Shown here piece after piece: positions 2,815 to 61,818 of a stretch of 64,000 nt of DNA. This DNA comes from Trichoplax adhaerens (lineage: Eukaryota; Animalia; Placozoa), in the NCBI RefSeq assembly GCF_000150275.1, contig NW_002060951.1, positions 2,384,323-2,448,322 of the forward strand, written 5' to 3'. The notes below the pieces were generated by a model. That model had not been told where the DNA came from, made no database searches, and saw nothing but the letters and a program-made list of their open reading frames with translations. The stretch's first letter is position 1, and each line of letters starts with the position of its first letter. Position numbers and translations under genes: made by a program.

Positions 2815-3060
2815 TACGTACGTACAGTACGTACTGTACAGAGTACAGTATGATGGACTGTATCGCGTTCTATCAAGACCATTTGAAGAAACTCATCCTG
2901 TACTGTACAGTACTGTACTGTACTGTACTGTACTGTACTGTACGTACTGTACAGTGTGGATAATGTACTGTACACTGTACACTGTAAAGTCATACAGTAC
3001 TATACAGTACAGTACAGTACAGTATTGTACTGTACAGTATTGGGAGTAGAACTCTCGCTC
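2815..3060. repeat. (TACTG)n/(CAGTA)n pentanucleotide array cluster
   Basis: e.g. tactgtactgtactgtactgtactgtactg at 2911-2945, with opposite-orientation runs adjacent forming palindromes. Confidence 0.9.
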
Positions 3061-3186
3061 GTTCTATTTTATCGCCTATCGTTGTGTAAAATGTTTATTT
3101 CATTGAATTGAATCTAATTTAACCCTGATTATGTACAAGGGCTGCAAATCAATAGTTCACAACTACTGTATTCAAGAGAGTACTAC

Positions 3187-3410
3187 ATAGGATGATAAGA
3201 GTAGATGTACAGTACTAATGAATTAATGATATAACAGCTATATATTATTATGTAGTGTATGTTTTAGCATCAAATTACAAGCTAATTTTACATAGGACGA
3301 TAAGAGTAGATGTACAGTACAGTACAGTACTAATGATACAACAGCTATATATTATTATGTAGTGTACTGTATGTTTTAGCATCATTACAAGCTAATTTCA
3401 TTGGCCATGG
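3187..3410. repeat. tandem duplication of a ~107-bp unit
   Basis: Unit cataggaYgataagagtagatgtacagtac...taatga...acagctatatattattatgtagtgta..gtatgttttagcatca(aa)ttacaagctaattt is present twice in tandem with a few indels. Confidence 0.8.
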
Positions 3411-3597
3411 GAAGGGTATTCGATGAAAACTGTAACAAATGCTGGATTACTTGTCCCTGACTTTTGAGTAGCTCGCCTATCCCCACGCCTTGACTCGAAG
3501 TTGACTCCGGGTATCATGCCTTTATAAACACCTGTACGGTAACATCGATATTATTAAATTTTGAAAAGTAATACCGTACTGTACTATCGTTATTATG

Positions 3598-3768
3598 TCG
3601 GAACATTACAAGGAAACTGGAAACGTTTGCTCATTGGCCTGACATTCATGACGAGGCATCATTACAAGAAAGCAAGAAAACGCTTGTTCAATGGCTTAAT
3701 CCCCACGATTTTCCTAGCTATGCCAATGAGGAAGCGTTTCTTGTTTTCTTGTAATGATGCCCCGACAT
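3598..3768. repeat. direct + inverted copies of a ~35-bp 'cattacaag...gcttg/cattggcc' element
   Basis: ggcatcattacaagaaagcaagaaaacgcttg (3655-3686) is mirrored as caagcgtttcttgttttcttgtaatgatgcc (3733-3766). A direct copy lies at 3605-3640 and another at 3390-3410. The 69-aa ORF track entry 3561..3770 is an artefact of this structure. Confidence 0.75.
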
Positions 3769-4915
3769 AATCGTTACACGTTGCTATTTTAGGATCAAAA
3801 TTGTAGTCTAAATTACTGTATTACTCCCACAGTACAATACGAATACACTAAATTCGTAACATGGTTTTTAATATAGGACGTTGAGAGGTTGTTATGCGAT
3901 TGTTACTGAACGTTAAGTTTTTACCCGATGGGTGACAGGTACTGTATTTGTACAGATGAACGGCAACGGCTTTACCGGCGGCCAAGCCATACCGTAGATC
4001 AGTGTTCTACAGAGCTCGATGACATGGATGAGGTCATTAACGAGCATTGAAAGCTAATTGAACTGGCCATTTAATCAAGGCATTGGACAGAATGTATTTT
4101 GGACTAGTCGGCTCGATGGTTAATTGATCTAAACTTGAAATCGTCTGACCTTATAAATTCGAACAATATCAACAGTACTTGTGTGTACAGCATTTAAGAT
4201 AACTTTGCAATAATGTTCACAGCGCTACAAGTGGTCTTAGTGTCATTTATTCGAATGCTGTTCGTTGTCGTACCAAACAAAACTAGTACACAAACACAAT
4301 TTTACTCCCATATATGTACAATATAAGAAGACCGTGTATCATGACCGAAGCAAACGAACTACTGTATAATATTCACAAATAATAAAATGAAGTATAATTT
4401 CTGCTGCATTTTCTCATTTTCAAACAGCCCAAAAAGGAGAATATCTAAATTTTTTCATTCATAGTAGTACACATACATCAAACATAGTATGTATATAGAC
4501 CATGCTCTAGGACACAGCTCTTAAATAAATACATACTACAGTAAGGTTTATAAAATAAAACAAAATAATAGCATATACGCTCTGAACTTGTATCAATTGT
4601 ACAATATCTATTTCATGGTAACACAATTTGGTAACCTCAACTTAAGGCTTTTATATCAATGTGCAAAGGTAGCCCTAGGATGTTTACTGGGACGACTTGA
4701 AAGAAAGTCTAGCTAACATCACAATATAAGCTACATTTTTAGAAAATAATACTTTCGATTTTAACAATCTGCTACTGTATATACTGTATACAAACTTTAA
4801 AGAATTACATATTAGATGAATGACAGTCAATACTTGCAGCTGGGCACCATTATACACGTATGCACATATAAATATTTGCAGATCTGCAAATACATCTGCA
4901 TGAAAGACTTTTAAA

Positions 4916-5089
4916 TCATACAATTGTTTGACTGGAAGTCCTACGTATCTGTGGGTTATGCATAGTAGATGAATTATCCTGTTTTCTCTCTTCAGTTAAA
5001 TCATTTAAACCTTCGTAAGTACGCAGAAAAGCTTGACACAGTTTTGTAAACAGATGAAACCAATTTGTCTGTCTATCGATATCTTCATC
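4916..5089 (-). CDS. NF1: NF1 terminal coding exon
   Basis: Acceptor ttctag|gat. Translation [34 protein letters not shown]...[11 protein letters not shown] aligns to human ...DYAELIVKFLDALIDTYLPGIDEE...KIV*. Confidence 0.75.
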   Translation of the reverse strand, partial: DEDIDRQTNWFHLFTKLCQAFLRTYEGLNDLTEERKQDNSSTMHNPQIRRTSSQTIV

Positions 5090-58872: not shown

Positions 58873-59439
58873 ACTGAACGGTATTTGATGGCGGTATTTG
58901 TAATGTATTGTTCTAAATACATACTAACTGTATACACTGCTTTCTGTTAACTCATTCATTTGACAAGACACCCTTCGGACATGCACTGCAAAGAGTTTCA
59001 TAATTATTAGATATTTCTATGTTACATCCTTCAGATATAGTGTACATTGTATACAAATAGCTATCACTATGTGTATACATATGCCGGTATACTGTATAAA
59101 TCGCTTTACAAGAATACTCGGTAGGGTGTGATATACCGATTTTACCTGATATTAAATATTTGATTGCAATGATCGCTTATATGACACCATCCGCCGTGCC
59201 AACAAAGGTTTATTACTGTACTTTATATGGCTAGTTTTTTGTATGAACTTATAACATATTTCTTGATTGTGTTATGTTTATGAGCGAAAATAAATGAAGT
59301 AAATGTATAAACACCGCACGATGTACGGTATTAAATTGACAACGTCTCTGATTCAAGGAGTCAAATGATAGAACGCCTGACCATATCGAAGTAGAGAATA
59401 CTCGTCTACGTACAATACATAGTATCACCTTTAAGTTAG

Positions 59440-59520
59440 CCTATTCTACTGTACTGTACAGTACTGTACATCAAATGTACAGAATGTACAGAACACATTG
59501 TACGGTACAGTAGGGATAGT
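59440..59520. repeat. (TACTG)n/(CAGTA)n arrays
   Basis: tactgtactgtacagtactgtacatcaaatgtacagaatgtacag... Confidence 0.85.
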
Positions 59521-60067
59521 ATGGACTGTCATTGCTGTCATGGCTTGCCAGAAAATGATTTTTGAAGTTTTTAATAGTCCGTGATACTATCTACTTTACG
59601 TACAGTAAACCAGTGAAACTTAACTGGTCTATTGTACAGTATTTGTACTATATAGCCAGCAGAGTATGACATCAAAGATGAAGATACAGTACACTACAGT
59701 ACAGTATGTGTAAACTTGATATTAATGATATGAAAACTAGTACTGTAGCATTTATTTTCGAGAAGATATCCTGATTTACTTTGTAGCGATCAAAATGATT
59801 GCTAAATAGTCAGATATCCATATTAAGTTAAGATAATATAGTATTCATTTATCATTAGTGATTGATATTACATGGACTTTGCAAGTTGATCAACTAAAAC
59901 AAGCCAGGGACCTCTAGCCATTTACGCATACTGATAATTTAAAATTTTTTTACTTGAGAGGTCACTGTACTGTACACATAGTGACAGCGCTGTACAGTAC
60001 TGTATGAAGCCTGGCCTGGAGTACCGTACTATCAGTAGAACACTAACTAGTTTTAAGTTTTACTAGT

Positions 60068-60600
60068 ACAAACTCCCGTCGCTATGCTGACGGATTACTT
60101 TGTTATAATATTACAAACTCCCGTCGCTTTGCTGACGGATTATGTTCTTATAATATTATACTTCTAGAATATTATTTTACAATAATACTTCAAAAGTGGC
60201 TCGGCCTTGCATCGCTATGCTGGCGGATTACGTTGTTATAATATTACAAACTCCCGTCGCTTTGCTGACGGATTATGTTCTTATAATATTATACTTCTAG
60301 AATATTATTTTACAATAATACTTCAAAAGTGACTCGGCCTTGCATCGCTATGCTGGCGGATTACGTTGTTATAATATTACAAACTCCCGTCGCTTTGCTG
60401 ACGGATTATGTTCTTATAATATTATACTTCTAGAATATTATTTTACAATAATACTTCAAAAGTGACTCGGCCTTGCATCGCTATGCTGGCGGATTACGTT
60501 GTTATAATATTACAAACTTCCGTCGCTTTGCTAACGGATTATGTTCTTATAATATTATACTGTACTTCTAGAATATTATTTTAAAATAATACTTCAGGCG
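60068..60600. repeat. 133-bp tandem satellite, about 4 copies, with internal ~45-bp sub-repeat
   Basis: acaaactcccgtcgctttgctgacggattatgttcttataatatt recurs at 60068, 60113, 60246, 60379 and 60512 (period 133). Each sub-unit contains the inverted repeat ccgtc-gctNtgct-gacgg (hairpin-capable) and ends in ttataatatt. Confidence 0.9.
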
Positions 60601-60629
60601 TGACTCGGTCTTGTCCTCATTTACTATAC

Positions 60630-60890
60630 AGTACAGTACGTAGCTAACATGTGATACAGTATCACTTACCGGCGTTTTTTTATCATTTGTACAGTACAGT
60701 ACTGTACTGTAGATACTGTAGATAAAAAAAAATGTTATGCTCTTGATTTTTAATAAAGTGGCAGTTAGCGCGCACGCGTAGGGCGGAAAATTTAAAAATA
60801 TGCTGTGGTCACTCAACATGCACAGTACAGTAATTTCAATTTGAAATTTAATTTCTGTTACAGTGTACAGTACAGTACAGCATGTTACAT
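60630..60890. repeat. (TACTG)n/(CAGTA)n arrays flanking the satellite
   Basis: tacagtacagtacgtag...tgtacagtacagtactgtactgtagatactgtag...gtgtacagtacagtacagcatg. Confidence 0.85.
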
Positions 60891-61818
60891 TTATGATGAC
60901 AGACTAGTCTCTGTCGTTAAGTAGCTGGTGACGACTGTCGAAGCCATAGCGAATCTGGAATCGTGAAGAACGACCGTTAATAGTTTACGCTACATTTTCT
61001 ATCATTCACAGTAAAATTGACGGTCTGAAAAGCGATCTAAAAGGTAAGTTAAATGTCAAACTCTATCATGTATGATCCTCCAACCTATAAACATGAGTAA
61101 TAGCTGATTTTTAAGCTTAATCCTTAAATTTAAAAAATTTTGAATGCAATACATACAGTATAGTAGACAGTAATATGGATTTACAGTAAATATCAGTCGT
61201 CAGTTGAAAACAGCAACCTACGCAAGCAAGCAAAATAGGCTGTAATTAGGCTAGCTTTCTCGTCTACATTACTGACAACATTAGAACTGGACAAACTAAA
61301 TAATTTACTTATTGCTCTATCGTATCCTCTCCCACTATACATACACTACATTAGACGTGTACAGTACTGTACAGTATATCTATCCTCTTCTGTGTAACGT
61401 TATTTAGATGCATATACTGTACGTATATGGTGTTGAAAATTAATAATTCTCGAATTAATTCCTAACACTCATATACTCAAATACGGTACAGTACTTTTAG
61501 TAAAACTGCACAAAGAATATAAGTGAATGTACTTATTAGGTCTCAGCGCACCGATATCTTAATCATTAACAACATGGTGTTTAGTTTAGTGTTAGTGAAA
61601 CTTCTGTCTAGAGTTTTCCAGGGGTAGCATGCATGTTAAAAAAAATTGAATCGTAACCTTAGGATTCATTTAATAATTTTTTAAAAGGGAACTTTGCAAT
61701 CGTCTATTATAGGTATAATTCATCGTACGAATTTTAGCTGGAGGTGACAGACCAAACTAAAAAATCAATCCTTATTGATTGTTGATATTATAGCCGAGGG
61801 ATAAAAAGCTGTCTAGAG

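What the first reader, a model, noticed from the sequence alone, without database searches (positions are those of the whole stretch)
2815..61380. Genome-pervasive palindromic pentanucleotide arrays (TACTG)n/(CAGTA)n occupying nearly every intergenic gap
More than 20 separate loci carry runs of TACTG or its complement CAGTA. Examples are 2815-3060, 3300-3330, 24180-25750, 30000-30140, 30410-30540, 41570-41720, 43600-43680, 43830-43860, 53820-54050, 54510-54560, 55040-55560, 59440-59520, 59690-59710, 59960-60010, 60630-60890 and 61350-61380. The two orientations are very often abutted (tactgtacagtactgtac...), producing long perfect palindromes centred on GTAC that could extrude as hairpins or cruciforms. 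They are concentrated between genes (e.g. they fill the 1.4 kb ANKRD13/POLR1C divergent region and bracket the tRNA) and in large introns, and are absent from coding exons. This density and placement goes beyond an ordinary microsatellite. It suggests either a dispersed satellite/MITE-like family with insertion preference for gene boundaries, or a sequence co-opted as a boundary or regulatory element.
Basis: seen in the sequence. Interest (0 to 1): 0.8.

Follow-up and report, generated by a model that had tools for sequence, protein, structure and literature searches.

The report
Known Trichoplax ACAGT promoter-side microsatellites
The window is placozoan (Trichoplax adhaerens) DNA and the TACTG/CAGTA runs are its already published, unusually abundant (ACAGT)n microsatellite, which here sits almost only on the promoter side of genes and changes length like any microsatellite.

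Summary
GTACWGTAC occurs 110 times against 0.54 expected, and all 16 listed loci check out. The window is Trichoplax adhaerens nuclear DNA. The repeat is the (ACAGT)n microsatellite that Wang et al. 2010 (Biol Direct 5:18) described as the dominant SSR of this genome and as gene-upstream associated, so the finding is a rediscovery.

New detail from this window:
- The arrays are one lattice, (GTAC+W)n. An A/T change at W flips the strand of a unit, which explains the abutted orientations.
- They do not fill every intergenic gap. Of the 110 copies, 99 lie in the six gaps that contain a gene 5' end, 1 in the two convergent 3'-3' gaps (9.8 kb), and 10 in gene bodies, mostly 5' introns. Supported exons carry no arrays.
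- Against Trichoplax sp. H2 (99.1% identical) the arrays stay in place but change by unit-sized indels. Their substitution rate equals that of the flanks.
- A distant placozoan has only a 3-unit remnant at the one orthologous gap available.
- The arrays share no flanks, TIRs or TSDs, so they are not MITEs.
- Perfect palindromes reach only 26 nt, although mixed arrays fold strongly as single strands.

A function as a promoter-upstream or boundary element is plausible but untested.

The parts
2718..3039 (.). Array cluster upstream of the RGS/SNX-like gene. (TACTG)6 at 2911-2940 faces (CAGTA)4 at 3005-3024, forming a 48-nt, 90% inverted repeat.
   Evidence: ssDNA fold -47.1 kcal/mol, z -6.9
3164..3371 (.). 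Sparse cluster including (GTACA)3.8 at 3312-3330, inside a 105-nt local duplication (3173-3215 / 3278-3320).
24191..24525 (.). Array cluster in the NF1/SETD8 divergent gap.
   Evidence: +7 nt (ACTGTAC) in H2 at 24490
24725..24794 (.). (TACTG)4.6 array.
25021..25159 (.). Degenerate lattice with ACCGT/ACGGT variants.
25339..25721 (.). Largest cluster. Holds period-5 arrays, period-10 (TACAGTACTG)n arrays and 22-nt perfect palindromes.
   Evidence: fold z -8.8
26273..26286 (.). Short (AGTAC)2.8 run 190 bp upstream of the SETD8 ATG.
   Evidence: 5 nt shorter in H2
29998..30140 (.). Cluster 31 nt downstream of the 3' end of tRNA-Ile (30171-30245, minus strand).
   Evidence: W flip A->T at 30085 and small indels relative to H2
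30356..30536 (.). Cluster 111 nt upstream of the tRNA and 350 bp upstream of the PB1-UBA gene ATG (30886).
   Evidence: 5 nt shorter in H2 at 30501
41572..41737 (.). Array in the 580-bp neuferricin/HNF1 divergent gap. Contains the longest perfect palindrome (26 nt, 41571-41596).
   Evidence: 3-unit remnant at the aligned edge in a distant placozoan
43620..43857 (.). Two short arrays in an HNF1 5' intron, next to the second copy of a dispersed element of about 140 nt.
53987..54607 (.). Three sparse clusters within ANKRD13 intron 1 (53787-54619).
55053..55115 (.). Array in the ANKRD13/POLR1C divergent gap, directly after a 27-nt x2 duplication.
55261..55539 (.). Array cluster including (TACTG)8, the longest perfect run (44 nt, 55442-55485), about 300 bp upstream of the POLR1C ATG.
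   Evidence: 28 nt shorter in H2
59447..59747 (.). Cluster downstream of POLR1C, in the tandem gap leading to BUB1.
   Evidence: +17 and -10 nt indels relative to H2
59964..60004 (.). Short array just before the 133-nt tandem repeat.
60558..60880 (.). Arrays just after the 133-nt tandem repeat, with a 22-nt palindrome at 60690-60711.
   Evidence: -5 and +15 nt indels relative to H2
61154..61494 (.). Short arrays 325-660 bp upstream of the BUB1 ATG (61819).

Best explanation
These are the (ACAGT)n/(ACTGT)n microsatellites of Trichoplax adhaerens, the dominant simple repeat of that genome.

Anatomy (shown): the unit is the self-complementary tetramer GTAC plus one A or T. Arrays in both 'orientations' are therefore one period-5 lattice, (GTACW)n. 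Every T-to-A switch of W automatically creates a palindrome centred on GTAC.

Dynamics (shown): arrays gain and lose whole units between the sister lineages H1 and H2, as expected from replication slippage. Their base-substitution rate is the same as that of the flanks. One W transversion that flips a unit was seen directly.

Origin of opposed blocks (inferred): larger blocks of opposite orientation probably arise by hairpin-templated strand switching, because mixed arrays fold into very stable single-strand hairpins.

Placement (shown for this window): arrays lie almost only in intergenic DNA that contains a gene 5' end and in 5' introns. Density runs divergent gaps > tandem gaps >> convergent gaps.

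Function (inferred, my preferred reading): arrays are retained at promoters as a 'soft', orientation-independent upstream element. That could be a multi-copy palindromic binding platform, or a nucleosome-poor stretch that absorbs negative supercoiling, and it would help mark and separate closely packed gene starts. Selection would act on presence and rough amount, not on exact length or sequence.
For: Identity: an exon is 100% identical to TRIADDRAFT_16260, and the window is 99.13% identical over 47.5 kb to Trichoplax sp. H2. Wang et al. 2010 report ACAGT as 78% of pentanucleotide SSRs, 5,624 loci, with 54% within 1 kb upstream of genes.

Lattice: 114 GTAC-GTAC spacings are exactly 5 nt, with spacer T 63, A 47, C 2, G 2. 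There are 110 copies against 0.54 expected.

Slippage: 19 of 57 H1/H2 indel rows, about 14 events, fall in or next to lattice, which covers 8.5% of the sequence. Their sizes are 5, 5, 5, 5, 5, 7, 10, 10, 15, 17 and 28 nt. Outside the lattice, 25 of 38 indels are 1 nt. The substitution rate is 0.45% both inside and outside.

Hairpins: z of -6.9 and -8.8 for mixed arrays.

Placement: 99 of 110 copies lie in six 5'-containing gaps (16.7 kb), 1 in two convergent gaps (9.8 kb), and 10 in 37.5 kb of gene bodies. Of the 26 perfect runs, the split is 23/0/3. The median distance to the nearest ATG is 954 bp, against 2,296 bp for random positions. Orientation is not tied to gene direction.

Function hint: a network trained on Trichoplax Micro-C data recovered repeated ACAGT as a motif that alters predicted contact patterns.

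Lattice words are still enriched in a distant placozoan: 3 GTACWGTAC in 4.9 kb.
Against: No sign of sequence constraint. The arrays evolve at the flank substitution rate and turn over in length between H1 and H2.

The one orthologous gap in a distant placozoan has 3 units where T. adhaerens has about 30.

The promoter-side bias rests on only eight gaps in one window. The 5' end of the RGS/SNX-like gene (gap A) is not mapped.

No binding factor, chromatin, TSS or expression data were available here. The Micro-C motif result is model-based and could simply reflect co-location with promoters.

The same unit forms arrays in at least 120 unrelated metagenome contigs, so the sequence itself needs no special function to expand.
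Confidence: 0.5

Rival explanations
1. Same microsatellite, but with no function. Arrays are a mutational by-product of promoter chromatin. Negative supercoiling and open, single-strand-prone DNA upstream of transcribed genes, strongest between divergent genes, favour hairpin extrusion and slippage. Arrays are therefore born and expand there, and not in positively supercoiled convergent gaps.
For: - Density ordering of divergent (15-16/kb in gaps E and H), then tandem (3-5/kb), then convergent (0.1/kb).
- Strong hairpin potential.
- Neutral-looking substitution rate and rapid unit indels.
- Only a remnant at the orthologous gap of a distant placozoan.
- Arrays are degenerate and variable in size and orientation.
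Against: A roughly 60-fold density difference between two kinds of presumably neutral intergenic DNA is large for a purely mutational bias. The divergent gap B (5.9 kb) is no denser than the tandem gaps. The Chimaera in-silico insertions suggest an effect of the motif itself.
Confidence: 0.35
2. A dispersed MITE-like or satellite element family that inserts preferentially at gene boundaries.
For: The arrays are dispersed and multi-copy, with inverted-repeat character. Some lie directly next to other repeats: a dispersed element of about 140 nt, a 27-nt duplication and a 133-nt tandem repeat. Mutator elements are known to sit in placozoan promoters.
Against: The repeat families found consist only of lattice; there is no shared internal sequence, defined ends, TIR or TSD. 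Lengths are continuous, from 13 to about 370 nt. H1/H2 differences are unit-sized slippage indels, not presence/absence of whole elements. Wang et al. looked for MITEs separately and classed ACAGT as an SSR.
Confidence: 0.04
3. The arrays are transcribed from neighbouring promoters, and their palindromic blocks form hairpin RNAs that feed a small-RNA pathway.
For: Strong fold-back potential of mixed arrays. Promoter-proximal position. A TATA-like box points into lattice at about 25310.
Against: No transcript or small-RNA data were available. Only 14 ACAGT SSRs occur in the EST set, against 5,624 in the genome. Rfam finds no RNA family.
Confidence: 0.04
4. Chance composition effect or assembly artefact.
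For: None beyond the AT-rich, low-complexity nature of the sequence.
Against: 0 of 100 shuffles approach the observed counts. The independent H2 assembly has the same arrays at the same places.
Confidence: 0.01

Closest known systems
(ACAGT)n microsatellite of Trichoplax adhaerens (Wang, Zhang, Meyer, Bao 2010, Biol Direct 5:18; PMC2871265)
   Same: Same organism, same unit (TACTG and CAGTA are rotations of ACTGT and ACAGT), same unusual abundance, same association with the upstream side of genes, and the same suggestion of a regulatory role.
   Different: That paper counted perfect runs only. It assigned every run to the nearest downstream gene without a null. It did not describe the GTAC+W lattice, the mixed orientations and palindromes, the emptiness of convergent gaps, or the H1/H2 indel behaviour.
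Repeating ACAGT motif recovered from Trichoplax Micro-C maps by the Chimaera network (NAR 2026, PMC12817080)
   Same: Same motif in the same genome, linked computationally to chromatin contact patterns at gene starts.
   Different: It is a model-derived motif with no locus-level description and no experimental test. That paper treats only the companion ACGG motif (Mutator TIR; Kim et al. 2025, PMC12221973) as previously explained.
Promoter tandem repeats and homopolymer tracts that set nucleosome occupancy, such as yeast promoter repeats and poly(dA:dT), and (GA)n/GAGA arrays in Drosophila (from general knowledge, not tested here)
   Same: Short repeats concentrated upstream of genes, variable in length between close relatives, and acting (where tested) through amount rather than exact sequence.
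   Different: Different unit. The unit here has a palindromic core, so it is strand-symmetric. No nucleosome or factor data exist for it.
Bacterial REP/BIME-type intergenic palindromic repeats (from general knowledge)
   Same: Short palindromic units dispersed in intergenic DNA and able to form hairpins.
   Different: Those are discrete imperfect palindromes, typically at 3' ends or between convergent genes, and are mobilised by a dedicated transposase. The arrays here are tandem microsatellites on the 5' side in an animal genome.

Membership tests
Microsatellite (SSR) | Head-to-tail tandem copies of a 1-6 nt unit | tested here: met
   Period-5 arrays found by TRF. 114 GTAC-GTAC spacings of exactly 5 nt. 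26 perfect runs longer than 12 bp, up to 44 nt.
Microsatellite (SSR) | Length changes by whole units between close relatives (slippage) | tested here: met
   H1 against H2: lattice indels of 5, 5, 5, 5, 5, 7, 10, 10, 15, 17 and 28 nt, about 4-fold enriched in the lattice. Substitution rate equals that of the flanks.
Trichoplax (ACAGT)n SSR of Wang et al. 2010 | Unit ACAGT/ACTGT in the T. adhaerens nuclear genome, located upstream of genes | tested here: met
   Organism identified. The unit is a rotation of ACAGT. The 5'-side bias is shown. The paper was read.
MITE / non-autonomous DNA transposon | Copies share an internal sequence and defined ends with terminal inverted repeats | tested here: not met
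   Repeat families consist of lattice only. The arrays share no common non-lattice flank or body.
MITE / non-autonomous DNA transposon | Target-site duplications and presence/absence polymorphism of whole copies | tested here: not met
   No array is wholly present or absent between H1 and H2; only unit-sized changes occur. No TSDs are visible in the sequences read.
Satellite DNA | Long (kb-scale), homogeneous arrays | tested here: not met
   The longest perfect run is 44 nt. Clusters are at most about 370 nt and are interrupted.
Cruciform-forming inverted repeat | Near-perfect inverted repeat with little or no spacer, long enough to extrude | tested here: inconclusive
   Perfect GTAC-centred palindromes of 14-26 nt, and 48-nt arms at 90% with a 50-nt spacer. 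Single strands fold with z down to -8.8. Extrusion from duplex DNA under supercoiling cannot be computed with these tools.
Insulator / boundary or promoter cis-element | Bound by a factor, or alters chromatin, contacts or expression when present | not testable with these tools
   Only positional evidence and a published model-based motif.

The most novel reading that the evidence does not exclude
The (GTACW)n lattice is a genuine, placozoan-specific promoter-architecture element. It would be a strand-symmetric platform, protein-bound or cruciform-forming, that absorbs negative supercoiling. It would keep a nucleosome-poor buffer between tightly packed, often divergent, gene starts, and it would be maintained by selection on amount while its length drifts by slippage. 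On this reading, the two repeated motifs singled out from Trichoplax Micro-C data (ACGG from Mutator TIRs, and ACAGT) would be two independent sequence solutions for organising a very compact animal genome.
Probability: 0.25. Interest if true: 0.6.

Novelty: already known. Interest (0 to 1): 0.25.

Why it matters
The abundance of this repeat and its upstream association have been in print since 2010, so the finding adds no new kind of element.

It remains mildly interesting because its role has never been tested. Three points from this window sharpen the question:
- The arrays are confined to the promoter side and absent from convergent gaps.
- The lattice is strand-symmetric.
- The arrays evolve like microsatellites, without sequence constraint.

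These points turn the question into a clear choice between a 'soft' promoter or boundary element and a promoter-specific mutational by-product. Published placozoan ATAC, Micro-C and four-species genome data could settle it.

Tried and rejected
- A chimeric 12-exon protein query meant to fetch all Trichoplax gene models at once returned only ANKRD13; the candidate list was swamped.
- Exact look-ups of TRIADDRAFT_16260, TRIADDRAFT_59062 and the window's own neuferricin exon ORF were not on record. The H2 cluster members found through worked instead.
- A self-trained codon-usage scan gave only weak exon calls. It was used only to show that there is no strong coding signal in 20.6-26.5 kb and 32.5-39.7 kb. 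Gene limits come from the H2 annotation.
- The SETD8 contig from the distant placozoan was too short to reach the tRNA gap.
- Rfam found only the tRNA, and nothing for the dispersed element of about 140 nt.
- The supplements of Kim et al. 2025 contain neither the lattice nor the CCGTC..GACGG motif as text. The stored Wang supplement is cut before this locus.
- A literature search for Trichoplax promoter motifs gave nothing further.
- Orientation relative to gene direction was considered as a sign of a directional element and dropped, because the counts show no consistent bias.
- I considered an initiator-like (CAGT) reading and a resemblance to the miR-101 seed. I did not pursue either; they are recollections without support in the data.

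
Full report
**Source and gene map**

The window is nuclear DNA of the placozoan Trichoplax adhaerens.
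- The exon at 40874-41410(-) is 100% identical to TRIADDRAFT_16260.
- The ANKRD13 exons match TRIADDRAFT_59062.
- Window 16469-64000 aligns collinearly at 99.13% identity with contig NOWV01000083.1 of Trichoplax sp. H2.

Pfam hits on the window's open frames and the H2 gene calls mapped onto the window give the following map.

| Gene | Strand | Window coordinates |
|---|---|---|
| RGS/SNX-like gene | - | 1 to about 1270; 5' end not mapped |
| NF1 | - | 5761-20570 |
| SETD8/KMT5A | + | 26477-29223 |
| tRNA-Ile(GAU) | - | 30171-30245 |
| PB1-UBA gene | + | 30886-32539 |
| neuferricin | - | 39751-41410 |
| HNF1 | + | 41991-47484 |
| ANKRD13 | - | 50085-54721; exon 1 at 54620-54721 |
| POLR1C | + | 55824-58872 |
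| BUB1 | + | 61819 to beyond 64000 |

Yes.
- GTACWGTAC occurs 110 times against 0.54 +/- 0.70 in dinucleotide-preserving shuffles.
- A three-unit probe with one mismatch allowed occurs 61 times against 0.02.
- The 8-mers of the repeat are about 50-fold over a first-order Markov expectation.

**Anatomy**

Successive GTAC tetramers are exactly 5 nt apart 114 times. The spacer is T (63), A (47), C (2) or G (2). The two 'orientations' are therefore one lattice, (GTAC+W)n. GTAC is its own reverse complement, so W=T reads TACTG and W=A reads CAGTA on the same strand. Every switch of W makes a palindrome centred on GTAC.

Switches make up 28% of adjacent spacer pairs. Independent spacers would give 49%, so runs of one orientation dominate while mixing remains frequent.

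Perfect GTAC-centred palindromes are 14-26 nt long. The longest is at 41571-41596. The largest imperfect inverted repeat has 48-nt arms at 90% with a 50-nt spacer. 'Long perfect palindromes' is therefore an overstatement.

As single strands, mixed arrays fold far better than shuffles: -47.1 kcal/mol with z -6.9 at 2893-3042, and -42.6 kcal/mol with z -8.8 at 25390-25539.

**Already published**

Wang et al. 2010 (Biol Direct 5:18) reported the following:
- Pentanucleotides are the commonest SSR class in T. adhaerens.
- 78% of them are ACAGT, with 5,624 perfect loci.
- 54% of these lie within 1 kb and 85% within 5 kb upstream of a gene.
- The authors proposed a transcription-factor-binding role.

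TACTG and CAGTA are rotations of ACTGT and ACAGT, so this finding is a rediscovery.

A later machine-learning study of Micro-C maps recovered 'repeating motifs ACGG and ACAGT' for Trichoplax. ACGG was already explained by Mutator TIRs at loop anchors (Kim et al. 2025). ACAGT was left uninterpreted.

This window holds 26 perfect runs longer than 12 bp, or 0.41 per kb. That is about 7.5 times the genome mean implied by Wang's count.

**Placement**

| Region class | Total length | GTACWGTAC copies | Density | Perfect runs >12 bp |
|---|---|---|---|---|
| Six intergenic gaps containing at least one gene 5' end | 16.7 kb | 99 | 5.9 per kb (9.5% of bases are lattice) | 23 |
| Two convergent 3'-3' gaps (32540-39750, 47485-50084) | 9.8 kb | 1 | 0.10 per kb | 0 |
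| Gene bodies | 37.5 kb | 10 | 0.27 per kb | 3 |

- The gene-body copies lie almost all in 5' introns of ANKRD13, HNF1 and SETD8.
- The short divergent gaps are the densest: 15.5 per kb for neuferricin/HNF1 and 16.3 per kb for ANKRD13/POLR1C.
- In 8.9 kb of homology-supported exons there are only two isolated 7-mers.
- Perfect runs lie a median 954 bp from the nearest ATG, against 2,296 bp for random positions.
- Orientation shows no consistent relation to gene direction.
- Single lattice words are about 6-fold enriched even in convergent gaps and gene bodies, which suggests a background of decayed arrays.

Two caveats apply. The analysis covers eight gaps in one window, and the status of gap A depends on an unmapped 5' end. 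Without gap A, 79 of the remaining 90 copies (110 minus gap A's 20) still fall in 5'-containing gaps.

**Evolution**

Between H1 and H2 all arrays are in place. However, 19 of 57 indel rows (about 14 events) fall in or next to lattice, which covers 8.5% of the aligned sequence.
- The lattice indels are 5, 5, 5, 5, 5, 7, 10, 10, 15, 17 and 28 nt. For example, (TACTG)8 at 55442-55485 is 28 nt shorter in H2.
- Outside the lattice, 25 of 38 indels are single bases.
- Substitutions occur at 0.45% both inside and outside the lattice.
- One substitution is an A-to-T flip of a spacer, at 30085.

This is ordinary microsatellite behaviour with no detectable sequence constraint.

A more distant placozoan (Logan assemblies, 59% protein identity in neuferricin exon 1) provides the orthologous neuferricin/HNF1 gap. 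It has a 3-unit remnant (cagtacagtactgta) aligned at the edge of the T. adhaerens array, next to a shared GTGCATTTC. Lattice 9-mers are still far above chance in its 4.9 kb.

**Not a mobile element**

The repeat search finds families made only of lattice. There is no shared body, defined ends, TIRs or TSDs. There is no whole-copy presence/absence between H1 and H2.

**Is the unit unique?**

No. At least 120 JGI metagenome contigs of varied GC content carry (TACTG)5. Only 8 of the 120 mix both orientations. In contrast, all three window clusters that contain a pure five-unit run mix both orientations. The mixing, the density and the promoter-side placement are the Trichoplax-specific aspects.

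**Interpretation**

I am confident (about 0.95) that this is the known Trichoplax ACAGT microsatellite, growing and shrinking by slippage. Orientation flips come from spacer transversions (one observed) and, by inference, from hairpin-templated strand switching.

Why the arrays are confined to the promoter side is open. I slightly prefer a 'soft' orientation-independent promoter-upstream or boundary role, such as a binding platform or a nucleosome-poor, torsion-absorbing buffer. My reasons are that a roughly 60-fold density difference between two kinds of non-coding DNA is hard to obtain from mutation alone, and that the Micro-C model singles out the motif.

A promoter-specific mutational by-product is nearly as likely. 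In that reading, negative supercoiling and open DNA drive hairpin formation and slippage. It fits the density ordering of divergent, then tandem, then convergent gaps, and it fits the lack of constraint.

Neither reading can be settled with the tools available here.

Noticed in passing
window 25214-25345 (+) and 43440-43570 (-): A dispersed element of about 140 nt occurs in two copies (47-nt core 91% identical, whole alignment 81%). It has two small hairpins (CCGC..GCGG and CTCTT..AAGAG) and ends in a TATA-like TCTATAAATAGCC. Both copies are flanked on both sides by lattice words. One lies in the NF1/SETD8 gap and one in an HNF1 intron. There is no Rfam match. It could be a promoter or enhancer module, a ncRNA gene or a small mobile element.
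   Followed up: partly
window 60079-60613: A 133-nt tandem repeat in 4 copies (96% identical), built from sub-repeats of about 45 nt that each carry the hairpin CCCGTCGCT(A/T)TGCTGACGG. It lies about 1.2 kb upstream of the BUB1 ATG, with lattice arrays at both ends, and H2 has the same copy number. It may relate to the 'ACGG' Mutator-TIR loop-anchor motif of Kim et al. 2025. The motif sequence could not be retrieved for comparison.
   Followed up: partly
window 30171-30245 (-): The tRNA gene has anticodon GAU (Ile) by ARAGORN and scores 62 bits in Rfam. From general knowledge, GAU is an uncommon isoacceptor for a eukaryotic nuclear genome, where AAU and UAU are usual. A T-run terminator follows the gene.
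   Followed up: no
window 41848-41880 (HNF1 5' region) and L002 381-417: A non-coding stretch of about 30 nt (CAATGCAGTGTAAACGAACAAAAAATG) upstream of the HNF1 ATG is identical in a placozoan whose neighbouring protein is only 59% identical. It is a candidate conserved regulatory or 5'-UTR element.
   Followed up: no
window 55003-55056: A 27-nt direct duplication (TTTGTGAATGGTCAAACTGCGGAATAC x2, 96%) lies immediately before a lattice array in the ANKRD13/POLR1C gap.
   Followed up: no
window 25018-25115 and elsewhere in 5' gaps: Lattice variants with a C or G spacer (ACCGTAC/ACGGTAC) occur at 1.0 per kb in 5' gaps against 0.1 per kb in gene bodies, and ACGG/CCGT is modestly enriched there. This hints at a link, or at mutational interconversion, between the ACAGT lattice and ACGG-type motifs.
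   Followed up: partly
window 32540-39750: A 7.2-kb convergent gap has no annotated gene in H2, almost no coding signal and almost no lattice. That is unusually long for this compact genome, and its content is unexplained.
   Followed up: no
window 4687-4995 (-): A faint Pfam hit to TMEM234 (E 0.008, below the curated cut-off) lies between NF1 and the RGS/SNX-like gene. A small unannotated gene may sit in gap A.
   Followed up: no
loci L008-L127 (JGI metagenome contigs): At least 120 metagenome contigs of very different GC content (0.33-0.64) carry long, mostly one-orientation (TACTG)n arrays. This pentamer is therefore a recurrent microsatellite in other, unidentified organisms.
   Followed up: partly
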